From Candidatus Woesearchaeota archaeon (GTDB lineage: Archaea; Nanobdellota; Nanobdellia; Pacearchaeales; GW2011-AR1), in NCBI GenBank assembly GCA_964493885.1, contig CAZBPV010000001.1:1-54950 (forward strand): DNA of 54,950 bases, given 5' to 3'. Below are positions 7,336 through 16,154 of this stretch, piece after piece. The notes beneath the pieces are model-generated. The model had not been told where the DNA came from, did no database searches, and saw only the letters and a program-made list of their open reading frames with translations. Numbering within the stretch: position 1 is the stretch's first letter; each line of letters starts with the position of its first letter. The position numbers and the translations under genes are program-made.

Positions 7336-7354
7336 TTTGCCTCCTTTGATTTCA

Positions 7355-7367
7355 GGGCGAAAGGAGA
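7355..7367 (-). repeat. Third copy of the tRNA-His 3' end (TCTCCTTTCGCCC)
   Basis: Identical to the last 13 nt of the tRNA-His gene. Lies 19 nt upstream of the hisS ATG. Confidence 0.8.
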
Positions 7368-7405
7368 CTGAAATTTTCTATTTCGTACTCCTTTCTTCTT
7401 TATCA

Positions 7406-7431
7406 GGGCGAAAGGAGAGAATTGAACTCTC
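7406..7431 (-). repeat. Second copy of the tRNA-His 3' end (T-arm plus 3' acceptor strand, 26 nt)
   Basis: GAGAGTTCAATTCTCTCCTTTCGCCC is identical to tRNA-His positions 49-73 plus one trailer C (7525-7500). Confidence 0.85.
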
Positions 7432-7499
7432 TTTGTCAAGTTTCTGTCCTTGATAAGTGCAGAGTTGATGTCTCCAAAACCACCCTGTGTTTTGTCGAG

Positions 7500-7571
7500 G
7501 GCGAAAGGAGAGAATTGAACTCTCGTCTGACGAGCCACAGTCGCCTGTTCTACCATTGAACTACATTCGCC
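7500..7571 (-). tRNA. tRNA-His (anticodon GTG) with encoded G-1
   Basis: Hand-folded cloverleaf: G-1 opposite C73; acceptor GCGAATG/CTTTCGC (one U-U at 6:67); D arm GTTC/GAAC; anticodon stem GGCGA/TCGTC; loop CTGTGGC; T arm GAGAG-TTCAATT-CTCTC. No encoded CCA. Confidence 0.9.
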
Positions 7572-7670
7572 ATAAGGGAACCAAGATTCCTGGACATTCA
7601 ATCTCCCTATGATTGAGCCAGTCTTGATCCCTATGTTTAATTTAATTGAATAAGGTATAAAAAAGTTCTT

Positions 7671-7684
7671 ATCAGCGTCTAGAG
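7671..7684 (+). repeat. Left flanking direct repeat ATCAGCGTCTAGAG
   Basis: Matches ATCAGCGTAGCTAGAG at 16041-16056 apart from a 2-nt indel. Lies immediately outside the left terminal inverted repeat. Confidence 0.7.
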
Positions 7685-7721
7685 GGCTTTGTTAAATAAA
7701 TAGTGCTTGTTAAATAAGTCT
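7684..7721 (+). repeat. Left terminal inverted repeat of the island (partly duplicated)
   Basis: GGGCTTTGTTAAATAA (7684-7699) and GCTTGTTAAATAAGTCT (7705-7721) both match the reverse complement of 16021-16040. Confidence 0.75.
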
Positions 7722-8064
7722 ATTCTTCTATTTTCATACCCAATTCATTCAATTTTTTTATTATTGCTCTACTTGCTTGAACTCTTTCTTTTCTTTGGTC
7801 GTAAAATGTTTTGGCAGAAAGGACTAAGATAATTAAGGATAAATCAATAAAAACAGAGACCATTAGCCAGTTTAACGTTTGTGCAAAAATTACAATAAAA
7901 ATAGCAAAAATTAAAGAGAAGCTAAAATATATCTTAGAATACATATTTTCTTTAAGAGTTCTTATTTCATCAGAAACGTACCTTAAACTTTGAATATTTA
8001 TATACTTGGCTTGAGCTAATGGGTCTTTTTCAAAATCTATTCTTTCATTATAGAATTTAACCAT
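7720..8064 (-). CDS. Small membrane protein (two predicted TM helices)
   Basis: 114 aa with hydrophobic stretches IYFSFSLIFAIFIVIFA and LMVSVFIDLSLIILVL. Confidence 0.45.
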   Translation of the reverse strand: MVKFYNERIDFEKDPLAQAKYINIQSLRYVSDEIRTLKENMYSKIYFSFSLIFAIFIVIFAQTLNWLMVSVFIDLSLIILVLSAKTFYDQRKERVQASRAIIKKLNELGMKIEE

Positions 8065-8069
8065 AAATA

Positions 8070-8096
8070 ATTATGGTACCGACATATTTATATAGT
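8070..8096 (+). promoter_or_regulatory. TATA-box promoter module, copy 1 of a 27-bp repeat
   Basis: ATTATGGTACCGACATATTTATATAGT, with TTTATATA at 8087-8094, 24 nt before the ATG at 8119 (leaderless geometry). Matches 10611-10637 at 26 of 27 positions. Confidence 0.55.
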
Positions 8097-8118
8097 TTAT
8101 TGTGATTGAGTTTTTATA

Positions 8119-8277
8119 ATGAAAATAATAAAAGTAATGTCAAAAAAGGTGAAGGATAAGGAATATTCAAAATATCTTCTTAATTTGCCTAAGGATGTAG
8201 TTGAAGAATCTAAACTTTTAGGAAAGGATTTGAAAGCTAAAGCAGAGAAAGATAAGATTATTATTGAGAAAGATTAA
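8119..8277 (+). CDS. AbrB/SpoVT-like small DNA-binding protein (52 aa, below the ORF-track cutoff)
   Basis: MKIIKVMSKKVKDKEYSKYLLNLPKDVVEESKLLGKDLKAKAEKDKIIIEKD. The LNLPKDVVE...DKIIIEK pattern resembles a swapped-hairpin AbrB/MazE fold. Confidence 0.5.
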   Translation: MKIIKVMSKKVKDKEYSKYLLNLPKDVVEESKLLGKDLKAKAEKDKIIIEKD

Positions 8278-9350
8278 TTTAGAAGTAATTTAGAAATAAA
8301 AGGATTTTCGGATATAATCGGTTTTTTAAGAATATAATCTTTCATCTTAAAATTTTCTAAAAAAATATTTGTTTGGTTTTGAAGCTCTTTTTTAATTCTA
8401 CTGGAGTTATTTGTTATGTTTATATTTTTAGGTTCAATACTTTCTTGTTCACCAAACTTTTTATAATAATATGTTTGTGCATCAAAGAATCTCGCTTTAT
8501 GTTTCCATATCTCTTTTTGGTCTATTTTTTCTGTTTTTACATTTGGATTAAATCTTTGGGGTTCACGATTGATTCCAATAATACTTGCCCCCCCTATGCT
8601 TGAAAGTATGTCTGAAGAAGGAGTGTTTTGGCTTTTTATATTTGATAGAATTTCTCTTTTTATGTTTGTAAAATAGAATATAGACTCTCTAAAAACATCT
8701 TTTGAATCAAGAAGTCTTCTAATTCTTCTTATTCTTGCAGAAGTACTTTTGTTTATGGGTTTTCCCTCAAAGTCAAACCAGATATAATGATACCCTTTTT
8801 TTATGTAATGTTCAACAAGAGTGTTTATTCCCTCCATAGATAATCTCATGGATATAGGAACAAAGATTGGTTTTGAATTCATTTCTTTAAAAAAGTCATA
8901 GCAGTAATCAATAAATTTTATATAATCCTCTAAGGAAATTATTTTTTTAGTTATATTTGGAATAATTAGTATATCCTTAGAATGACTATAAAGATATTCT
9001 AAAAATGAATCTAAAGTCATGTTATCCTGTTCGGATAAGGGATTAAAGCGAAATGTTAAACTTACTATATTAAAGAACTCTGAAGCCCATTTCTTATCTT
9101 GGAAAAAATTGTCTATCCTCTTATCATCTTCAGAAGATACAATACTTTTTATTTGAGAGAAGTCCTTTATGTACTTTGAAATTTCAATTATCTCTTTTTT
9201 ATTGGATAAATTAACAAAACTTTTATTCAAAAATTTTATATCAAATGTCTTTTCTGGCATATCAAATGTCTTATTGCCTATCTTAAACCTCTTAATATTA
9301 AATTGGCTGGTTTTATCTGGAATGTACTCTTTTATGTTTATTTCTGACAT
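8274..9350 (-). CDS. Hypothetical 358-aa protein, last gene of the four-gene operon
   Basis: The start overlaps the PIN-like gene by 13 nt. Alternating hydrophobic strands and helices (IFVPISM, YIWFDFEG, SIFYFTNI, ASIIGIN) suggest an alpha/beta fold. No motif recognised. Confidence 0.6.
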   Translation of the reverse strand: MSEINIKEYIPDKTSQFNIKRFKIGNKTFDMPEKTFDIKFLNKSFVNLSNKKEIIEISKYIKDFSQIKSIVSSEDDKRIDNFFQDKKWASEFFNIVSLTFRFNPLSEQDNMTLDSFLEYLYSHSKDILIIPNITKKIISLEDYIKFIDYCYDFFKEMNSKPIFVPISMRLSMEGINTLVEHYIKKGYHYIWFDFEGKPINKSTSARIRRIRRLLDSKDVFRESIFYFTNIKREILSNIKSQNTPSSDILSSIGGASIIGINREPQRFNPNVKTEKIDQKEIWKHKARFFDAQTYYYKKFGEQESIEPKNINITNNSSRIKKELQNQTNIFLENFKMKDYILKKPIISENPFISKLLLN

Positions 9351-9883
9351 ATTTCCTTTCTTAATTCATTTAATATTTCTACTTTTATTCTGAAATTTGA
9401 TTTCTCAATATCATCATACAAATTAAGAGTTTCATTCTTATTAAATATTTTGTAATTTAAACAACATTTTTTAATGAAAGTAACAGTTCCAAAAAGGTGG
9501 GAACTTAGCTCTATTAAATTTCTTTCTATGAACTTTCTTGGTTTACTATCATCAATTATAATAAAGAAATCTTTTTCTTTTGATAGATTATAAACAAAAT
9601 AAGCAGTAATAATTATATCATATTCCCCTCTTTTTATTTCCTGTTTTGACAAAAAAGGTTGTATTGGTTTTCCAATATCAAAAGAGGGAACAAAAAAAGT
9701 ATTAAGATTTTTATGGTTTGATATTTTTCTCCAATTTTTTGAATCTTTTATCTCCTCGGAAACCTTGGGAGGAATATGTGTTTTAAAGTTGTCAAGAATC
9801 CTAATCAAGTAGTCAGATTTATTTATACAGTCAAGAAAACAAATATAGAAACTTGAATCAGCCACTAATTCGTTTAGCACCAC
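9338..9883 (-). CDS. PIN-like (DUF3368-type) putative nuclease toxin
   Basis: N-terminal ADSSFYICF, then KRGEYDIIITA and IIIDDSKPRKFIE...GTVTFI. Resembles the D/E/D arrangement and the GE..DD..R..GT pattern of PIN_3 proteins. Confidence 0.5.
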   Translation of the reverse strand: MVLNELVADSSFYICFLDCINKSDYLIRILDNFKTHIPPKVSEEIKDSKNWRKISNHKNLNTFFVPSFDIGKPIQPFLSKQEIKRGEYDIIITAYFVYNLSKEKDFFIIIDDSKPRKFIERNLIELSSHLFGTVTFIKKCCLNYKIFNKNETLNLYDDIEKSNFRIKVEILNELRKEICQK

Positions 9884-10392
9884 TTTAATTCCTCTGCTTT
9901 CTCTTCACTAATTAAACCTTTTTTTAGAAGGTTCTTAATAATCTTTAATTTGATTTCATTATTAAATAGAAATTTACATCTATTTGATTTTTCCATAAAC
10001 TCGGGATAAGAACAATAAATAATAAAAAGTAATTCATCTTCTTCAAGTTTTTCATATACTTCCCTAATAAATTTAATTAAGACTAATGATTCTTTTTTCT
10101 CTTTAAGGGAAATTTCTTTAAACTGCTCCTTTCCTTTTTCTGATAATAAAAATTTGTTGCCCATCTTTGAAAAAGAATTTTCAAAATATAGGGGGTCATC
10201 TAATGAATCGTGAATAACCTCTGAAAAAGGACCTTGATAATGTTTTTTAAAATCAAAGAGAACTTCTAATTCTTTCAAAGTTCTTGTCAGTAAGAAAAGT
10301 TCCTTTTGAATAAAAAGTTCATCAATTGGTTTTTCTTGCAAACCTAATAATAAAATTAACTTTTTTTCAGCTTCCTCAATTTCATCATTCAT
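9874..10392 (-). CDS. Panacea/YwgA-like putative antitoxin or adaptor
   Basis: IQKELFLL...FDFKKHYQGPFSEVIHDSLD resembles the QK..Y...F.F....GP(Y/F)S motif of DUF4065-type proteins. Overlaps the PIN-like gene by 10 nt. Confidence 0.4.
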   Translation of the reverse strand: MNDEIEEAEKKLILLLGLQEKPIDELFIQKELFLLTRTLKELEVLFDFKKHYQGPFSEVIHDSLDDPLYFENSFSKMGNKFLLSEKGKEQFKEISLKEKKESLVLIKFIREVYEKLEEDELLFIIYCSYPEFMEKSNRCKFLFNNEIKLKIIKNLLKKGLISEEKAEELKWC

Positions 10393-10396
10393 TTTT

Positions 10397-10549
10397 TTAT
10401 TTTAATTGCAATTTATTTGAAAATAACCAAGCATGGATTATTTCTTTTATAAGCTTTGATTTATCCATATCATACTTTTTAACTGCTTGTTCCCAGAGTT
10501 TCCAATCCTCATCTTCTAAGTATGCTACTATTCTCTTTGTTGATGACAT
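10397..10549 (-). CDS. Ribbon-helix-helix (CopG-like) protein (50 aa, below the ORF-track cutoff)
   Basis: MSSTKRIVAYLEDEDWKLWEQAVKKYDMDKSKLIKEIIHAWLFSNKLQLK shows a beta-strand/helix/helix pattern. Its stop is 4 nt before the next gene's ATG. Confidence 0.55.
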   Translation of the reverse strand: MSSTKRIVAYLEDEDWKLWEQAVKKYDMDKSKLIKEIIHAWLFSNKLQLK

Positions 10550-10562
10550 TCTTTAAGCATTA

Positions 10563-10596
10563 AAGTGTGCTACACTTATGTTTAAGAGTGTGCTAC
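10563..10596. promoter_or_regulatory. Candidate operator of the RHH operon
   Basis: Perfect palindrome AAGTGT-GCT-ACACTT (10563-10577). AGTGTGCTAC is repeated at 10587-10596, 23 bp apart, between a minus-strand TATA-like box (10597-10606) and the RHH ATG. Confidence 0.45.
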
Positions 10597-10610
10597 TATT
10601 TATAAAGATT

Positions 10611-10637
10611 ATTATGGTACCGAAATATTTATATAGT
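10611..10637 (+). promoter_or_regulatory. TATA-box promoter module, copy 2 of the 27-bp repeat
   Basis: ATTATGGTACCGAAATATTTATATAGT, with TTTATATA at 10628-10635, 21 nt before the transposase ATG at 10657. Confidence 0.55.
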
Positions 10638-10656
10638 GGTGGTACCTGAATTATCT

Positions 10657-11880
10657 ATGGAAACAAATTGGAAGAAATTAACAAGATATAAGCGAGGGAG
10701 ATTAATCTCTAAAGACTTAAAAATAGAGAAAGTTGAGGATAAATGGAAGGTTCCTTCTCAATCTGGAAAAGGGTTTTACTATGTTCACTTTGATGGACAT
10801 AGACCAAAATGCAACTGTCTGGATTGTAGAATAAGACATGGAAGATGCAAACACATAATCGCTGTAGAATTATCTATTCAAGAGAAGATAGACATAGATG
10901 GAACCATCTCTCAAATAAAGAGAGTAAGAATCGGATATGCCCAAAATTGGAAAGCTTATGATAAATCTCAAACAAATGAAAAATTATTCTTTCTAAGACT
11001 CTTAAGGGATTTATGTACAAATATTGAACAACCAGTGTATAAGTTTGGAAGACCAAACTTTCCTTTTTCAGAAATGGTTTTCAATTCGGTCCTTAAGATT
11101 TATTCAACTTTCTCATTAAGAAGATTTATGTCGGATATGAAAATTGCAAAACAGATGGGCTTAATTGAAAATTTATGCACATATCCAACAATTAGCAATT
11201 TTATGCAGAAAAAAGAACTAACCAGAGTTTTGAAATCTTTAATTAAATTGAGTTCAAGTCCATTAAGTTCTGTTGAAACATCTTTTGCAGTAGACAGCTC
11301 TGGTTTTTCTACTTGTAGATTCGCAAGATGGTTTGATGAAAAATGGGGAAAAGAAAAGAAGTATAAAATTTGGCTAAAGGCACATTTAATTTCAGGAATC
11401 AAAACAAATATTGTCACTGCTGTAGAAATTACAGAAGGAAAAGTGAACGATAGTCCTCAACTAAATAAACTTGTTAATGAAACAGCTAAGCAATTTAGTG
11501 TAGGTGAAGTTAGTTGTGACAAAGCTTACAGTTCAAGAAAGAACTTAGAGCTTATTCATAATGTAGGTGCTGTTCCCTACATCCCATTCAAAAAGAATGC
11601 AACTGGAAAATCCAGAGGTTCATGTGTTTGGAGTAAAATGTACTATTACTTCATGTATAAGCATGATGAATTTCAAGAACATTATCATAAAAGGAGTAAT
11701 GCTGAAACAGTTTTCCATATGATTAAAACAAAATTTAGAGATAATCTAAGGAGTAAAACAAAAACTGCTCAAGTTAATGAACTTCTCTGTAAGGTTCTTT
11801 GCCACAATTTATGTGTTATAATTCAAGAGATTAATGAATTGGGAATTAGGGGGAAGTTTGTTGTAGAGGAGAGAAAATGA
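10657..11880 (+). CDS. DDE transposase (IS4/IS5-like) with N-terminal SWIM zinc finger
   Basis: SWIM CNCLDC...CKH. DDE candidates are AVDSSGF, SCDKAYSS and YHKRSNAETVF (a Y-x2-R-x3-E motif). The ORF track opens at a GTG at 10636. Confidence 0.75.
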   Translation: METNWKKLTRYKRGRLISKDLKIEKVEDKWKVPSQSGKGFYYVHFDGHRPKCNCLDCRIRHGRCKHIIAVELSIQEKIDIDGTISQIKRVRIGYAQNWKAYDKSQTNEKLFFLRLLRDLCTNIEQPVYKFGRPNFPFSEMVFNSVLKIYSTFSLRRFMSDMKIAKQMGLIENLCTYPTISNFMQKKELTRVLKSLIKLSSSPLSSVETSFAVDSSGFSTCRFARWFDEKWGKEKKYKIWLKAHLISGIKTNIVTAVEITEGKVNDSPQLNKLVNETAKQFSVGEVSCDKAYSSRKNLELIHNVGAVPYIPFKKNATGKSRGSCVWSKMYYYFMYKHDEFQEHYHKRSNAETVFHMIKTKFRDNLRSKTKTAQVNELLCKVLCHNLCVIIQEINELGIRGKFVVEERK

Positions 11881-11942
11881 GTAAAAAATATAAAACGGCA
11901 AATTTAAATAGTCCTAATTCTTATAAAAGGAAAGGAGAAAAG

Positions 11943-13928
11943 ATGGCGGTTGAAAGAAAGAATGAGGCAAAAAAAGATATTATTCTATATAACTTCTTAA
12001 AAGATAATAGAAAATATAAAAATTCTTGGGATATAAAAAAAACAAATAATAATATCATTCAATCTATTTTGGATAAAGCAAGTAAAAGAAAAACGGATAA
12101 AAGAGGAGAACCAGATTTACTCTATATTGATGAATCGCATAAATTGTTAATTTTACTTGAAAATAAAGATAGTATAAAACAACATCAATCTAAAGAAGGA
12201 AACAATGTTGAAGGTTATGCTGTTGACGGAGTAAAACATTATTTATCTTTTTTTACAGAAAATTATATTGAAACATTACCTTCTCCGAATAAAAAATATT
12301 TAAAAAATTGGAAAATTGTTGGAATAGCAGTTTCAGGAAATATATTGGACTTGTATAATCATCTTATTTCTACATTTATCATAAATAAGAGTGAAATAAA
12401 AGATATTGAAACAAAAGAAATTTTGAACGAAGAAGATTATCTTTCTCTTTTTGAAAATGTAGATATGGAAAAACTAATAAGAGAAGTATCAGAATCTTCT
12501 AAAAGAATAAATAATAAATTACGTTCTTTAGATTCGCAAAAGAGACCCGTGTTACTTAGTGGATTGATGATTTGTTTATTCACAAGAGATGGAAGAAATG
12601 ATTTTAAGGAGGGATATATGGGTTGGGAGGTTAAAACAGTTATAAATAATATTCCTACTACAATCAATCAAATTTTAAAAAAAGAAGGAATACCTAAGGA
12701 TAAAATAGAAGTGTTAACTAATGAACTATCATTTATTAAAACTGACCAAGATTTAAATAACACAGAAATCTTAAAAGAAATATTAGAGGAATTAGATAAA
12801 AATGTTATCCCCCTATTTACCAAAGAAACTAATTATGATATTTTGGGAAAATTTTATGAGGAATTTCTGAGATATGCTGGAATAAGTAACGTTAAGAACG
12901 GAATAATTTTGACTCCGAGCCATATAACTAAGCTTTTTACTGAATTAGTAGATATAAAAAACAATGATGTAATATTAGACACTTGTTGTGGAACTGGAAC
13001 ATTTTTAATATCTTCTATGAATAAACTATTCTTTGAAATAAATAAATCTAATATAAGGAACAAGGTAGACCTAATTAAAAATATAAAAGAAAAACAACTT
13101 ATAGGTTTTGAAAAAAGTTCTACTATGTATGCTCTTGCTATCTCAAATATGTTATTTAGAGGCGATGGAAAATCAAAAGTATTTAACGTAGATTCTTTCT
13201 CAGATGAAGCAAAGAATATACTAAATAATTTAAAAAAAGAAGGGATAGTACCAACAATTGGATTCATAAATCCTCCTTATGGGGGACAGGATAATAAGGA
13301 TAAACCCACCAAAAAAGAAATTCAATTTTTAGAGAATATGTTAGATTCAGTTAGCAGATTTGGAGTAATAATTGCTCCCCTTTCTACGTATATAAAAGAA
13401 GAGTCAGTTAGAGAAAGGATATTATCCAAACATACTTTAAAATGTGTTATAAATATGCCAAAAGAATTATTTCAACCAAATGCTTCAGCTCATACTGCAG
13501 TTGCAGTTTTTGAAACAAATAAACCCCACAATAACAAAGAAGTCGTATTTTATGATTTAAAAGAGGATGGTCTTATTTTATCTAAGAACAGAGGAAGAAC
13601 AGATGCCTTAAACAAATGGGGAGGAATAAAGAAAAAGTTATTTGAAGAATTAAATAATCCTGATAAGTTTAGTGATGGGTTTCATTTATTAAAAACTACT
13701 ATAACTGGAGAAGATGAATGGATAATCCAAGCCCATAGCCAAACGGATTATCATAATTTAAATGATGAATCTTTTACTAAGAGTATAAAAGAATATACAA
13801 TCTTCTCAACAAAAGTTAAATTGGGATTATTGGATAAAGATATAGACGAACTAACTCTTTTAGAAATATTAAATGAAAATAATATCTCTGCGGAGGAGGT
13901 ATTGAATGAAAGTGATTCCTCAAACTAA
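11943..13928 (+). CDS. BcgI-like (type IIB/IIG) restriction-modification subunit: N-terminal PD-ExK nuclease fused to an N6-adenine methyltransferase
   Basis: GEPDLLYID...LLILLENK (PD...ExK), SAM motif ILDTCCGTGTF, and catalytic NPPYGG. The ORF opens at 11877, but GGAGA precedes the ATG at 11943. Confidence 0.65.
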   Translation: MAVERKNEAKKDIILYNFLKDNRKYKNSWDIKKTNNNIIQSILDKASKRKTDKRGEPDLLYIDESHKLLILLENKDSIKQHQSKEGNNVEGYAVDGVKHYLSFFTENYIETLPSPNKKYLKNWKIVGIAVSGNILDLYNHLISTFIINKSEIKDIETKEILNEEDYLSLFENVDMEKLIREVSESSKRINNKLRSLDSQKRPVLLSGLMICLFTRDGRNDFKEGYMGWEVKTVINNIPTTINQILKKEGIPKDKIEVLTNELSFIKTDQDLNNTEILKEILEELDKNVIPLFTKETNYDILGKFYEEFLRYAGISNVKNGIILTPSHITKLFTELVDIKNNDVILDTCCGTGTFLISSMNKLFFEINKSNIRNKVDLIKNIKEKQLIGFEKSSTMYALAISNMLFRGDGKSKVFNVDSFSDEAKNILNNLKKEGIVPTIGFINPPYGGQDNKDKPTKKEIQFLENMLDSVSRFGVIIAPLSTYIKEESVRERILSKHTLKCVINMPKELFQPNASAHTAVAVFETNKPHNNKEVVFYDLKEDGLILSKNRGRTDALNKWGGIKKKLFEELNNPDKFSDGFHLLKTTITGEDEWIIQAHSQTDYHNLNDESFTKSIKEYTIFSTKVKLGLLDKDIDELTLLEILNENNISAEEVLNESDSSN

Positions 13929-14895
13929 ATGGGAATGGTTTGATATTACTTCTCTTTTCAAAATTGAAAAAGGAGAAAGATTAGTAAAAACCGATAGGAT
14001 AGATGGAGAAGTTCCATTAATTACTGCCTCTTCTAAGAATAATGGAATTGTGGATTTCTTGTCTAAAGAGGTCTTTAAAGAAAAAAAGAAAACTTTTGAT
14101 AATAAAATAACTATTGATATGTTCTTTAATACATTCTATCAGGACGAAGAGTATTTTAGTGATGACAATGTCCATACATTAATCCCTCTGTTTAATAAAA
14201 ATAATTTATACATAATGTTGTTTCTCCTAACAATTTTAAGACAATCTGCTTATAAGTATGGCTATGGGAGGCAATTGAGAATAAAGAGATTAGAATTGGA
14301 AAAAATTAAACTCCCTGCTGACGAAGAAGGAAATCCAGACTGGAAGTTTATGGAGAAGTACATGAGAGAACTTTCCAAGAAGGTTTATTTTGATAAAAAA
14401 GTTAAAAAAGTAAGCTTAAGGAAAGTAGAAACTAAAAATTGGGGGAAATTTGTAATAGGGGCACTATTTAAAAATAATTTTAAAAGGGGGATGAGATTAA
14501 TTGAGATTGATAGAACTAAAGGGGATATTCAATATTACTCTGCTTCAAGTAAAAATAATGGTTTAACTGATATGATTGCAAATCCCATTTTTATAGAAAA
14601 AGATGCACTCATATATTCCACATTTGGGGATTCCTTTTATGTTGAAGGAGAATTTACTGCAAGTGATGAAATAACTATTTTGAAACATCCAGAGATGAAC
14701 AAATATAATGGTCTTTTTATAGCAACAATTCTTAAAGAAAATAAATATAAATATGGCTTTGGGAGAAAAGCATTTTTGAATAAATTATTAAAAGATACAA
14801 TTAAACTCCCTGCTGACGAAGAAGGAAATCCAGACTGGAAGTTTATGGAGAAGTACATTAAATCATTACCTTATTCCAAAACATTGGAGAATTAA
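13906..14895 (+). CDS. Restriction-modification specificity (HsdS/BcgIB-like) subunit with two target-recognition domains
   Basis: Two halves each carry ...ASSKNNG... and end in IKLPADEEGNPDWKFMEKY. Overlaps the upstream gene by 23 nt. Confidence 0.75.
   Translation: MKVIPQTKWEWFDITSLFKIEKGERLVKTDRIDGEVPLITASSKNNGIVDFLSKEVFKEKKKTFDNKITIDMFFNTFYQDEEYFSDDNVHTLIPLFNKNNLYIMLFLLTILRQSAYKYGYGRQLRIKRLELEKIKLPADEEGNPDWKFMEKYMRELSKKVYFDKKVKKVSLRKVETKNWGKFVIGALFKNNFKRGMRLIEIDRTKGDIQYYSASSKNNGLTDMIANPIFIEKDALIYSTFGDSFYVEGEFTASDEITILKHPEMNKYNGLFIATILKENKYKYGFGRKAFLNKLLKDTIKLPADEEGNPDWKFMEKYIKSLPYSKTLEN
14304..14363 (+). repeat. 60-bp perfect internal direct repeat of the S gene, copy 1
   Basis: AATTAAACTCCCTGCTGACGAAGAAGGAAATCCAGACTGGAAGTTTATGGAGAAGTACAT is identical to 14799-14858. 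Confidence 0.9.
14799..14858 (+). repeat. 60-bp perfect internal direct repeat of the S gene, copy 2
   Basis: Identical to 14304-14363. Encodes the conserved spacer helices of the S subunit. Confidence 0.9.
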
Positions 14896-14924
14896 AATGA
14901 TAACCTTCAAACTCATAAAATAAA

Positions 14925-15500
14925 ATGGTAGACATCATAACAATAATACTTATCATAGTCCTTCTGGTGGGTTTGTTTATTGCTTATAGGATTGGACATA
15001 AAGCAGGGGCTTTTAAAAGAGATATATTCTGGGAAGGAGAATTGCCTAATTACAGAAAAGATGCTATCATGAAATCCAGAGCAGTATTAGGAGGACAATT
15101 CTCAGAACAGTTAGCTCCTTATCTTCCTAATTTTGATTATTTACCCACTGAATGTAGATTCATTGGGAAACCCATAGATTTTATTGTCTTCAAGGGAATG
15201 GATGATAAAGACATTAATGAAGTTGTGTTTGTTGAAGTAAAAAGTGGAAATGCTAAATTAAATCAACATGAAAAGAATCTTAAAGAAACTATAGACAAAA
15301 AGAGAGTCAAATGGGTTGAATACAGAATACCTGAAGAATTGCACAGTAATAAAACAGAACTTGGAGATAAAATTTCTAATGTGGTAAACGGAATAGAAGA
15401 GGATGTTAAGAAGTTTTTATGTGAATCTTGTGGAAGAGCAATCAAACATAAAGGAAAATGCTTTGCTTGTAATATTAAGGCTAAAAAAGAAAGAAAATGA
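14925..15500 (+). CDS. Membrane-anchored endonuclease related to archaeal Holliday junction resolvase (COG4741/Endonuc_Holl-like) with C-terminal zinc ribbon
   Basis: N-terminal TM helix, then SRAVLGGQFSEQLAPYLPNF...FIGKPIDFIVF...VVFVEVKSGNAKL, and C-terminal CESCG...CFAC. Confidence 0.55.
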   Translation: MVDIITIILIIVLLVGLFIAYRIGHKAGAFKRDIFWEGELPNYRKDAIMKSRAVLGGQFSEQLAPYLPNFDYLPTECRFIGKPIDFIVFKGMDDKDINEVVFVEVKSGNAKLNQHEKNLKETIDKKRVKWVEYRIPEELHSNKTELGDKISNVVNGIEEDVKKFLCESCGRAIKHKGKCFACNIKAKKERK

Positions 15501-15991
15501 AAGACGGAAAACCAGATAACAATAATATAGGAAATACTGGAGAGTATTTTATTGCATCCATTCTTTCTTCAAAGGGGTATATAACCACCATAACACTTGG
15601 TCGTGCTGAAGCATATGATATAATTGCAATAAGACCTGATGGAAAAACAATCAAAATTCAAGTTAAAACTGCATGGTATGATAATAAGATATTTAGGCTG
15701 TCTCCAAAGGATGCTGAGGAAAGAAATTTGGAATATTTCTATGCTTTTGTTACATTAAAAGAGAATAAATCTCCTTGGGAATATTATATTGTTCCTGCAG
15801 AAATAGTTTCTAAACATGTTGGTGAAGGGCATAATATTTGGTTAAATTCTCTTGGAAAAAAAGGGCAGAAACATAATGATAGTTTAGTTAGAACATTTAG
15901 TTCAAAAATAGGCAAATGTAGTCCAAAGTGGTTTACTCAAGAGTTAGTAGATTCTTTTAAGAATAATATACATGCTTTAGAAAAAGATTAA
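15497..15991 (+). CDS. PD-(D/E)XK-like nuclease-fold protein
   Basis: GNTGEYFIASILSSKGY...AYDIIAIRPDGKTIKIQVKT shows an E...D...QxK pattern. ATGA overlap with the upstream gene. Confidence 0.4.
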   Translation: MKDGKPDNNNIGNTGEYFIASILSSKGYITTITLGRAEAYDIIAIRPDGKTIKIQVKTAWYDNKIFRLSPKDAEERNLEYFYAFVTLKENKSPWEYYIVPAEIVSKHVGEGHNIWLNSLGKKGQKHNDSLVRTFSSKIGKCSPKWFTQELVDSFKNNIHALEKD

Positions 15992-16020
15992 AATTCTGTT
16001 AAAAAAGTAGGCTAAAATCA

Positions 16021-16040
16021 AGACTTATTTAACAAAGCCC
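16021..16040 (-). repeat. Right terminal inverted repeat of the island
   Basis: The reverse complement GGGCTTTGTTAAATAAGTCT matches 7684-7699 and 7705-7721. Confidence 0.75.
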
Positions 16041-16056
16041 ATCAGCGTAGCTAGAG
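16041..16056 (+). repeat. Right flanking direct repeat ATCAGCGTAGCTAGAG
   Basis: Direct copy of 7671-7684 with a 2-nt insertion. Lies immediately outside the right inverted repeat. Confidence 0.7.
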
Positions 16057-16154
16057 AAATCTTCTATATTAGTTGTGGGGAAACCCCCAAACTTTAGCTA
16101 TCATAATATTCCGCATACCAACTACTTTTTAAACCTAACTATTTTGAATTTTAT

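What the first reader, a model, noticed from the sequence alone, without database searches (positions are those of the whole stretch)
7671..16056. 8.4-kb island with transposon-like ends: 16-20 bp terminal inverted repeats flanked by a 14/16 bp direct repeat
Seen:
- Left end: ATCAGCGTCTAGAG (7671-7684), immediately followed by GGGCTTTGTTAAATAA (7684-7699) and a second partial copy GCTTGTTAAATAAGTCT (7705-7721).
- Right end: AGACTTATTTAACAAAGCCC (16021-16040, the reverse complement of the left repeat), immediately followed by ATCAGCGTAGCTAGAG (16041-16056).
- The layout is therefore DR-TIR ... TIR-DR, as for a transposon with a long target-site duplication. It lies about 110 bp from tRNA-His.
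- The cargo is entirely accessory: a TA-like operon, an AbrB-like ORF, a SWIM-DDE transposase, a BcgI-like R-M pair and two nucleases.
- An extra AGTCTTGAT (7620-7628) matches the sequence continuing past the right repeat (16017-16025), which suggests an older rearrangement.

Established knowledge: IS4/IS5-type transposases normally make much shorter duplications, so the resident transposase may not have moved the whole unit.

Inference: this is a composite or non-autonomous mobile defence island, or an invertible segment.
Basis: partly seen in the sequence, partly recalled or inferred. Interest (0 to 1): 0.65.

Follow-up and report, generated by a model that had tools for sequence, protein, structure and literature searches.

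The report
Archaeal IS903-like transposon carrying defence genes
The 8.4-kb island is a real, recently mobile DNA transposon in a tiny groundwater (DPANN) archaeon: it is distantly related to the bacterial insertion sequence IS903 but carries a restriction-modification system and other passenger genes, and a near-identical copy sits in a virus- or plasmid-like DNA from another sample.

Summary
They bound an 8,355-bp unit transposon (7685-16039) with one intact DDE transposase.

- **Mobility.** The same element (99.8% identical over 7.8 kb) lies in a 31.5-kb primase-encoding contig from another metagenome. It ends at the same tips there and is flanked by a perfect 9-bp duplication.
- **Family.** 25 independent relatives in DPANN archaea have GGCTTTGT… tips and perfect 9-bp duplications. 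The complete elements measure 3.7-11.4 kb, and 23 of 35 carry an adenine-methylase R-M gene.
- **Relation to IS903.** The 18-bp end is 16/18 identical to the IS903 inverted repeat, which also makes 9-bp duplications. The transposase is IS5-like.
- **Empty sites.** About 35 related genomes keep HisRS–tRNA-His–U32 with a 185-320-bp spacer and no element.
- **What is atypical.** The 14/16-bp direct repeat is a real duplication of target DNA, but it is unique in the family and unexplained.

Not supported: a composite, non-autonomous or invertible element, an "older rearrangement", a TA-like operon, or an AbrB-like ORF.

Unexpectedly, the family inserts 6-7 bp from TATA-like boxes.

The parts
7685..16039 (+). 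The whole unit transposon, 8,355 bp, tip to tip.
   Evidence: The tips coincide with the break points of similarity to a second copy in another context (L002/L094) and with the tips of 35 related elements.
7671..7684 (.). Left copy of the duplicated target, ATCAGCGT--CTAGAG. It lacks the AG present in the right copy.
   Evidence: It follows spacer DNA that is orthologous to the L014 spacer.
7685..7703 (+). Left terminal inverted repeat, GGCTTTGTTAAATAAATAG.
   Evidence: (I20). It shares the first 15-16 nt with the right end.
7705..7721 (+). Second, subterminal copy of the end motif, GCTTGTTAAATAAGTCT. Probably a second transposase-binding site (inference).
   Evidence: The same tandem arrangement is kept in L094, L005 and L007.
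7720..8064 (-). Variable left-end ORF of 114 aa; function unknown.
   Evidence: No family hit. In the L094 copy it is replaced by an unrelated 125-aa ORF.
8067..8096 (+). 30-nt direct repeat, copy 1. It contains the TATA-like TTTATATA and lies upstream of the 52-aa ORF.
   Evidence: (D6): 93% identical to 10608-10637.
8119..8277 (+). Small 52-aa ORF. In relatives that lack the 4-gene module it lies directly upstream of the transposase.
8274..9350 (-). 358-aa passenger protein. The predicted fold is a TIM barrel most like tRNA-guanine transglycosylases; function unknown.
   Evidence: No Pfam, NCBIfam, PADLOC or PDB sequence hit. AlphaFold pLDDT 91.3. Foldseek best matches are TGT, E 2e-5, TM 0.45-0.58. 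122 mainly archaeal homologues.
9338..9883 (-). 181-aa passenger protein; function unknown.
   Evidence: Only a weak PADLOC hit, PDC-S70, E 5e-6. No PDB hit.
9874..10392 (-). 172-aa passenger protein; function unknown.
   Evidence: Weak PADLOC hit PDC-M19A, E 7e-9. No PDB hit.
10397..10549 (-). 50-aa first gene of the 4-gene module; possibly a small DNA-binding protein.
   Evidence: No significant hit here. Orthologues carry a weak NikA-like (ribbon-helix-helix) mark.
10608..10637 (+). 30-nt direct repeat, copy 2, abutting the transposase start.
   Evidence: D6.
10636..11880 (+). DDE transposase of 414 aa, IS5 family-like, with an extra N-terminal domain of about 100 aa that is weakly SWIM-like.
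   Evidence: PF01609 E 3.5e-22; SWIM E 0.0028, below cut-off. NF033579 IS5 130.3 bits against a cut-off of 140. 23% identical to the IS903B transposase, E 2e-10, with D220, D295, E357 and Y(2)R(3)E(6)K aligned.
11877..13928 (+). Fused endonuclease-methyltransferase of a BcgI-like (type IIB/IIG) R-M system, 683 aa.
   Evidence: PF02384 E 4.9e-30. PADLOC REase_MTase_IIG E 1.7e-56.
13906..14895 (+). Specificity subunit of the R-M system, 329 aa, with two target-recognition halves.
   Evidence: PF01420 E 5.2e-30. PADLOC Specificity_II E 6e-34. Internal 80-nt repeat (D1).
14925..15500 (+). Endonuclease related to the archaeal Holliday-junction resolvase, 191 aa.
   Evidence: PF10107 E 6.4e-35.
15497..15991 (+). 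PD-(D/E)XK nuclease, 164 aa.
   Evidence: PF11645 E 2.8e-7.
16021..16039 (-). Right terminal inverted repeat; on the minus strand it reads GGCTTTGTTAAATAAGTCT.
   Evidence: Its first 18 nt are 16/18 identical to the IS903B inverted repeat GGCTTTGTTGAATAAATC.
16040..16056 (.). Extra C (16040) followed by the right, ancestral-looking copy of the duplicated target, ATCAGCGTAGCTAGAG.
   Evidence: This copy continues into a motif conserved in element-free relatives.
7654..7665 (-). TATA-like box GGTATAAAAAAG beside the insertion. It is probably the promoter of tRNA-His (inference).
   Evidence: Conserved in relatives. In the short spacer of L015 it lies about 24 nt from the tRNA 5' end. The family inserts 6-7 bp from such boxes.

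Best explanation
Window 7685-16039 is an autonomous unit (non-composite) DNA transposon of a DPANN-archaeal lineage related to the IS903 group of the IS5 family.

**How it most likely works**
- The single DDE transposase (10636-11880) binds the GGCTTTGTTAAATAAG ends. The left end carries a second, subterminal copy of this motif.
- It cuts at the tips and joins them to target DNA, normally with a 9-bp stagger.
- Everything between the ends moves as passengers: a BcgI-like R-M system, two nucleases, a 4-gene module of unknown function and small ORFs.

**Where it landed.** This copy sits in the short spacer between tRNA-His and the U32 peptidase gene, just beyond a TATA-like box.

**Shown**
- The exact ends.
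- The same element in a second, unrelated context with a 9-bp duplication.
- The family-wide pairing of transposase, tips and 9-bp duplication.
- Empty orthologous sites in related genomes.

**Inferred**
- That the resident enzyme is active.
- Whether transposition is cut-and-paste or replicative.
- Why this copy carries a 14/16-bp rather than a 9-bp duplication. Candidate causes are an aberrantly long stagger, or a repair event at the left junction, followed by small indels.
For: 1. **Second context.** L002, L003, L004 and L094 match window 8061-16039 at 99.57%, with only 13 differences after 8257.
   - Similarity stops exactly at 16039. The left tip is conserved and is flanked by a perfect 9-bp duplication, TAACATTTG.
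   - Contigs of run X4 show the same two break points, at 7684 and 16039.
   - That contig encodes a D5-like primase-helicase (phrog_864, E 2e-52) and many small ORFs, with no housekeeping genes in the 22 kb held.
2. **Family.**
   - 25 independent insertions have RGCTTTGT...ACAAAGCY tips around a homologous transposase and perfect 9-bp duplications. The complete elements measure 3.7-11.4 kb.
   - More than 6,700 homologous transposases were found, largely from Pacearchaeota and other archaea.
3. **IS903 link.**
   - IS903B in plasmid Rts1 is 1,057 bp with inverted repeat GGCTTTGTTGAATAAATC and a 9-bp duplication.
   - The window's right end is 16/18 identical to that repeat.
   - ISVa2 shares the GGCTTTGTTG tip.
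   - The transposase's best NCBIfam hit is IS5, E 9.7e-38, and the catalytic residues align with IS903B.
4. **Empty sites.**
   - About 35 relatives keep HisRS-tRNA-His-U32-GluRS. Many have a spacer of only 185-320 bp, and none of the 80 loci fetched has a transposase within 10 kb.
   - The 274-bp spacer of L014 aligns with the window's left flank and then its right flank.
5. **Occupied junctions.** Both junctions are confirmed in independent data: contigs of run X1 and GCA_035256385.1.
Against: - The 9-mers next to the window's tips match at only 3 of 9 positions. This copy instead has a 14/16-bp repeat with a 2-nt gap and an extra C. No other of 36 elements shows this.
- No empty site was found in the same species.
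- No excision, circle or inversion joint appeared in the runs available. These are assembled contigs, which drop rare variants.
- The transposase scores just below NCBI's IS5 cut-off (130.3 against 140), and its activity is untested.
Confidence: 0.88

Rival explanations
1. The island is non-autonomous or composite. Another enzyme moved it in trans, and the resident transposase is a passenger or a separate nested IS.
For: This copy's duplication is longer than the 9 bp typical of the enzyme type. A 30-nt direct repeat brackets the internal segment 8067-10637.
Against: - There is only one transposase gene and no IS copies at the ends.
- In 36 elements the same transposase family always lies inside the same tips, and no separate short IS with its own ends surrounds it.
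- The tips and the duplication length match those of its bacterial homologue IS903.
Confidence: 0.05
2. The long repeat arose by homologous recombination between two independent insertions of the element about 7 bp apart. The left junction would come from one allele and the right junction from the other.
For: - Several family members have one or both flanks that do not match as a duplication (L008, L009, L145, L157, L162). That is what recombination or assembly switching between copies would produce.
- The family has a strong target preference, so repeated hits at one spot are plausible.
Against: - The second site would lie about 14 nt from the TATA-like box, outside the 5-9 nt range seen in the family.
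- This model still needs a 2-nt deletion and an extra C.
- Neither parental junction was found in any run.
Confidence: 0.15
3. It is a tRNA-targeted genomic island integrated by a site-specific recombinase, and the direct repeats are attachment sites.
For: It lies 114 bp from tRNA-His, and partial copies of the tRNA 3' end lie nearby at 7405-7431 and 7353-7367.
Against: - No integrase or recombinase domain occurs in any ORF.
- The repeat is not tRNA sequence, and the element lies on the 5' side of the tRNA.
- The tRNA fragments lie outside the element, on its other side.
- The element sits in unrelated, non-tRNA sites elsewhere, with 9-bp duplications.
Confidence: 0.01
4. It is an invertible segment, or the repeats are a common intergenic motif unrelated to the island's boundaries.
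For: Inverted repeats flank the segment.
Against: - The motif occurs only twice in 55 kb.
- No strand-switch joints were seen.
- The gene order and orientation are the same in the second context.
- Similarity to other copies ends exactly at the repeats.
Confidence: 0.01

Closest known systems
IS903 / IS903B (IS5 family, IS903 group; enterobacterial plasmids, ends of Tn903)
   Same: - A DDE transposase of the PF01609 type with an aligned D, D, E and Y(2)R(3)E(6)K signature.
- An 18-bp terminal repeat that is 16/18 identical: GGCTTTGTTGAATAAATC in IS903B against GGCTTTGTTAAATAAGTC here.
- A 9-bp target duplication, seen in IS903B in Rts1 and in 25 relatives of the window's element.
   Different: - IS903 is 1,057 bp with a single gene. 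This element is 8,355 bp with 10 passenger ORFs, and the complete elements found measured 3.7-11.4 kb.
- The transposase is only 23% identical, carries an extra N-terminal domain of about 100 aa, and scores just below the NCBIfam IS5 cut-off.
- The host is a DPANN archaeon.
- This particular copy has a 14/16-bp rather than a 9-bp duplication.
Unit transposons and 'transporter IS' (tIS) of bacteria: IS-like elements with passenger genes between one pair of ends
   Same: One transposase, short terminal inverted repeats, a target duplication, and accessory or defence cargo moved as one unit.
   Different: - Such cargo-carrying DNA transposons were listed in 2019 as a class not detected in archaea (PMC6563490, Discussion).
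- A 2026 survey of archaeal IS elements does not mention passenger genes (PMC13343696, term search).
Tn903-type composite transposons
   Same: IS903-type ends and accessory cargo.
   Different: Composite transposons have a complete IS copy at each end. Here there is only one transposase gene and 19-37-bp ends.
BcgI (type IIB restriction-modification)
   Same: A fused endonuclease-methyltransferase subunit together with a separate specificity subunit.
   Different: Recognition sequence and activity are untested. It is cargo, not part of the transposition machinery.

Membership tests
IS5 family, IS903 group | DDE transposase of the DDE_Tnp_1 type with the D, D, E triad and Y(2)R(3)E(6)K | tested here: met
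   PF01609 E 3.5e-22. BLASTP to the IS903B transposase gives E 2e-10, with D220, D295, E357, Y350, R353 and K364 aligned.
IS5 family, IS903 group | Passes NCBI's curated IS5 transposase model | tested here: inconclusive
   The best model is NF033579 (IS5), at 130.3 bits against a cut-off of 140, E 9.7e-38. The next best models are IS1182 and IS4, which score far lower.
IS5 family, IS903 group | Terminal inverted repeats of about 18 bp beginning GGCTTTGTTG | tested here: met
   The window's right end is 16/18 identical to the IS903B repeat read from plasmid Rts1. ISVa2 shares GGCTTTGTTG.
IS5 family, IS903 group | 9-bp target-site duplication | tested here: inconclusive
   Met in 25 independent relatives, including the near-identical copy L094. 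Not met in the window's own copy, where the adjacent 9-mers match 3/9 and there is a 14/16-bp repeat instead.
IS5 family, IS903 group | Simple IS of about 1-1.5 kb that encodes only the transposase | tested here: not met
   This element is 8,355 bp with 11 ORFs. The complete family elements found measured 3.7-11.4 kb.
Unit transposon / transporter IS | A single pair of inverted ends enclosing one transposase plus passenger genes, and moving as one piece | tested here: met
   The same ends and cargo are found in two unrelated contexts at 99.6-99.8% identity.
Composite transposon | Two complete IS copies flanking the cargo | tested here: not met
   There is one transposase ORF, and the ends are only 19-37 bp long.
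Integrase-type tRNA-targeted genomic island | A tyrosine or serine recombinase, and attachment sites that duplicate the 3' part of a tRNA gene | tested here: not met
   No recombinase domain was found. The repeat is not tRNA sequence, and the element lies on the 5' side of tRNA-His.
Invertible DNA segment | An invertase gene, and both orientations present in the population | tested here: not met
   No invertase was found and no strand-switch joints. The runs are assembled contigs, so rare forms could have been missed.
Toxin-antitoxin operon (for 8274-10549) | A two-gene module with a recognisable toxin and antitoxin family | tested here: not met
   It is a four-gene operon with no TA family hit in Pfam, NCBIfam or PADLOC. 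The largest protein is a TIM barrel most like tRNA-guanine transglycosylases.

The most novel reading that the evidence does not exclude
The window holds one member of a large, apparently undescribed family of IS903-related unit transposons in DPANN archaea.
- None of the complete elements found is a bare IS; all carry cargo, and about two thirds carry R-M genes.
- They move between chromosomes and extrachromosomal virus- or plasmid-like DNA.
- They choose targets 6-7 bp from the far side of archaeal TATA boxes. That would be promoter-adjacent targeting, perhaps guided by TBP/TFB-bent DNA or by the resemblance of the target to the element's own end, which has TTAAATAA 7 bp from the tip.

If so, these would be cargo-carrying DNA transposons of a class reported as not seen in archaea, with a safe-haven insertion rule reminiscent of some eukaryotic elements.
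Probability: 0.45. Interest if true: 0.75.

Novelty: new variant of a known kind. Interest (0 to 1): 0.6.

Why it matters
- **Gene flow in DPANN archaea.** These archaea have tiny genomes and depend on hosts, and little is known about how they exchange genes. Here a single transposon carries a complete R-M system and nucleases. It is found 99.8% identical in a chromosome and in a primase-encoding extrachromosomal-type contig from a different sample. That is direct evidence of recent transfer of defence genes, and it ties that virus or plasmid to Pacearchaeota-like hosts.
- **A conserved transposase-DNA interface.** The near-identity of the ends to those of IS903, with only 23% transposase identity, suggests that end recognition has been conserved across the two domains. 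It also makes the element testable with the genetics already built for IS903.
- **Target choice.** The TATA-adjacent target rule, if confirmed, would be a new example of promoter-guided transposon targeting in archaea.

Tried and rejected
- **Exact look-ups** of the U32 peptidase, the transposase and GluRS found nothing on record.
- **IMG/VR scans** with the end sequence and with the transposase found nothing.
- **Empty-site search.** An exact pattern (left flank, 0-30 nt, right flank) found nothing in JGI metagenome contigs.
- **Possible empty-site joint.** A joint 7574->16069 in run X1 had only 27 nt on one side. It could not be recovered when each junction was laid separately. X1 instead confirms both occupied junctions, so I treat that joint as unreliable.
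- **Generic inverted-repeat search** in the AT-rich loci gave mostly spurious pairs. I replaced it with a tip-motif search.
- **Rfam** has no family for the conserved motif beside the insertion.
- **PDB sequence searches** of the 358-, 172- and 181-aa proteins gave nothing.
- **Promoter-restoring idea.** I considered that the outward-facing TTATTTAA in the end replaces a displaced promoter. Where genes could be seen, they lie on the far side of the TATA-like box and are read away from the element. The promoter therefore stays with its gene, and I dropped the idea.
- **Circularity of the 31.5-kb contig** could not be shown, because its first 9.3 kb could not be fetched. It is only suggested by two assemblies of almost equal length (31,512 and 31,478 bp) whose ends are shifted by about 2.4 kb.


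Full report
**Observation**

The 20-nt end motif occurs only at these two places in the window, against 0.01 expected by chance. A flush direct repeat this good arose in about 1.6e-4 of random position pairs.

The host is a low-GC archaeon, about 30% GC. It has diphthamide synthase, Spt4 and ribosomal proteins S24e and S27e. Its closest relatives are Pacearchaeota, Woesearchaeota or Nanoarchaeota MAGs from groundwater and sediment.

**The element is mobile and the ends are exact**

The last gene of the island led to three contigs: JGI Ga0315286_10000564, an ENA contig and a Logan contig.
- They carry the same ten genes in the same order.
- They match window 8061-16039 at 99.57%, with only 13 differences after 8257.
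- Similarity stops exactly at 16039.
- The left tip, GGCTTTGTTAAATAAG, is conserved.
- The element is flanked there by a perfect 9-bp duplication, TAACATTTG.
- Contigs of run X4 show the same two break points.

That second context is a 31.5-kb contig with these features:
- It encodes a D5-like primase-helicase, a CoiA-like nuclease and many small co-directional ORFs.
- The 22 kb I could read hold no housekeeping genes.
- Two assemblies give nearly the same length with ends shifted by about 2.4 kb. This suggests a circular virus or plasmid, but I could not show it.

The two copies are mosaic at the left end.
- The 114-aa ORF is replaced by an unrelated 125-aa ORF.
- The small 52-aa ORF region is about 12% diverged.

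**Family**

The transposase has more than 6,700 homologues, largely from Pacearchaeota and other archaea. I fetched 80 metagenomic loci and several close relatives.
- In 36 elements the tips RGCTTTGT...ACAAAGCY enclose the transposase.
- 25 independent insertions have perfect 9-bp duplications.
- The complete elements measure 3.7 to 11.4 kb.
- In 23 of 35 elements an N6-adenine methylase or R-M gene follows the transposase. Other recurrent cargo is PD-(D/E)XK and Cas4-like nucleases.
- The 4-gene module (50, 172, 181 and 358 aa) is confined to the closest subclade and is therefore cargo.

**Relation to IS903**
- NCBIfam's best model for the transposase is IS5, at 130.3 bits against a cut-off of 140.
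- From memory I recalled the IS903 end. I then tested it: the 47-mer matches more than 5,000 plasmids at 100%, under genes annotated as IS903B.
- In plasmid Rts1 the element is 1,057 bp, with inverted repeat GGCTTTGTTGAATAAATC and the 9-bp duplication GACACAACG.
- The window's right end is 16/18 identical to that repeat. The transposases are only 23% identical, but the catalytic residues align.
- ISVa2 shares the tip.

This pairing of homologous enzyme, homologous ends and equal duplication length is the main reason to think the resident transposase moves the whole unit.

**Insertion site**
- The order HisRS, tRNA-His, U32 peptidase, 147-aa gene, GluRS is conserved in about 35 relatives. Many of them have only 185-320 bp between tRNA-His and U32, and none has the transposase within 10 kb.
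- The 274-bp spacer of L014 aligns first with window 7571-7670 and then with 16049-16154. The element therefore interrupts an ancestral spacer of about 230 bp.
- The right repeat copy continues into a motif conserved in relatives. The left copy lacks AG.
- AGTCTTGAT at 7620-7628 lies in the conserved spacer, so it is a chance match.

**The long repeat**

This copy is the only one of 36 with a long duplication. Read against the family rule, the right junction is canonical except for the extra C16040. The left junction carries additional target bases.

I cannot decide between three explanations:
- an aberrant 16-19-bp stagger followed by small indels;
- a repair event at the left junction;
- recombination between two nearby insertions.

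No same-species empty site was found.

**Cargo**
- The 683-aa and 329-aa proteins form a BcgI-like type IIB pair.
- Two nucleases follow.
- The 358-aa protein has no sequence family. Its confident model (pLDDT 91.3) is a TIM barrel most like tRNA-guanine transglycosylases, but only weakly (TM 0.45-0.58).
- 'TA-like' and 'AbrB-like' are not supported.

**Target preference (unexpected)**
- In 20 of 25 insertions a TATA-like hexamer ends 5-10 nt from the duplication, mostly 6-7 nt. The background at random intergenic positions is 15% (p about 1e-12).
- In the window's own genes the same hexamer ends 21-22 nt before the start codon.
- At several targets a gene starts at that distance on the far side of the box and is read away from the element. 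The family therefore seems to insert just upstream of promoters.
- In the window the box at 7654-7665 is probably the tRNA-His promoter. That would explain why the element lies near the tRNA without any integrase.

**Literature**
- A 2019 survey lists cargo-carrying DNA transposons among the classes not detected in archaea (PMC6563490).
- A 2026 archaeal IS survey does not mention passenger genes (PMC13343696).
- My searches were limited.

**Verdict**

This is a real transposon and a new archaeal, cargo-bearing variant of a known IS group. One feature of this copy, the long duplication, remains unexplained.

Noticed in passing
window 7353-7367, 7405-7431 and 7498-7524: The 3' part of tRNA-His is repeated between HisRS and the tRNA: a perfect 27-nt copy and a shorter third copy. 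These may be leftover attachment sites of integrase-type elements. They lie outside the transposon and are unrelated to it.
   Followed up: no
window 16046-16107 (and the tRNA-His-U32 spacers of L014, L020, L021, L024, L035, L042): A conserved 60-75-nt motif lies upstream of the U32 peptidase gene. A 10-bp closing stem (CAGCTAGAAA / TTTTAGCTGT) has three pairs with compensatory changes, and there is an inner GC hairpin. There is no Rfam match. It could be a small RNA or a regulatory palindrome. The transposon's target duplication includes its 5' arm.
   Followed up: partly
25 related loci (e.g. L005 6946-6965, L164 9082-9101, L107 10230-10249); window 7654-7665: The family inserts with its 9-bp duplication 6-7 nt from a TATA-like box in 20 of 25 cases, against 15% at random intergenic positions. 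Where visible, the gene served by that box is read away from the element. The element's own end has TTAAATAA 7 nt from the tip, which is the same geometry.
   Followed up: partly
L094 1-7017 and L002 10544-17291 (JGI Ga0315286_10000564, 31.5 kb): The second home of the transposon is a contig with a D5-like primase-helicase, a CoiA-like nuclease and dozens of small ORFs on one strand. Two assemblies of almost equal length have shifted ends, which suggests a circular virus or plasmid of a DPANN archaeon.
   Followed up: partly
window 7722-8256 against L094 7055-7590: The two near-identical copies are mosaic at the left end. The 114-aa ORF is swapped for an unrelated 125-aa ORF, and the 52-aa ORF region is about 12% diverged, while the remaining 7.8 kb differ at only 13 positions. 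This points to recombination between family members.
   Followed up: partly
window 8067-8096 and 10608-10637: A 30-nt direct repeat (93% identical, containing TTTATATA) brackets the 52-aa ORF and the 4-gene module. In relatives without the module the 52-aa ORF sits directly before the transposase. The module therefore looks like a later insertion with a duplicated promoter.
   Followed up: partly
window 8274-9350 (-): The 358-aa protein belongs to a family of about 120 proteins with no Pfam family. It is found in Pacearchaeota, Bathyarchaeota, Nitrososphaerota, Archaeoglobales, Thermococcus and Asgard archaea. The predicted fold is a TIM barrel weakly resembling tRNA-guanine transglycosylases and the CBASS protein Cap10.
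   Followed up: partly
L102 1-8290 and L123 1-8519: In two metagenomic contigs the 88-96 nt flanking the element on the left are the reverse complement of those on the right. This could be an assembly artefact or a sign of inversion or hairpin forms; it is unexplained.
   Followed up: no
L008 and L009 compared with L007: The same element (transposase 78% identical to the window's) appears with one alternative flank each in different Rifle-type assemblies. The likely cause is several copies per population, or recombination or assembly switching between copies.
   Followed up: no
window 15900-15992 in run X10: A contig from a 2025 groundwater metagenome matches the end of the PD-(D/E)XK gene exactly and then diverges right after its stop codon (15992). 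The gene therefore also exists with a different downstream context.
   Followed up: no
window 7574 / 16069 in run X1: A single low-depth contig appeared to join 7574 to 16069 with only 27 nt on one side. It could not be reproduced, and I treat it as unreliable rather than as an empty site.
   Followed up: partly
window 14284-14363 and 14779-14858: An 80-nt direct repeat (89% identical) lies inside the specificity-subunit gene. This is the usual conserved spacer between the two target-recognition halves and a possible substrate for specificity shuffling.
   Followed up: no
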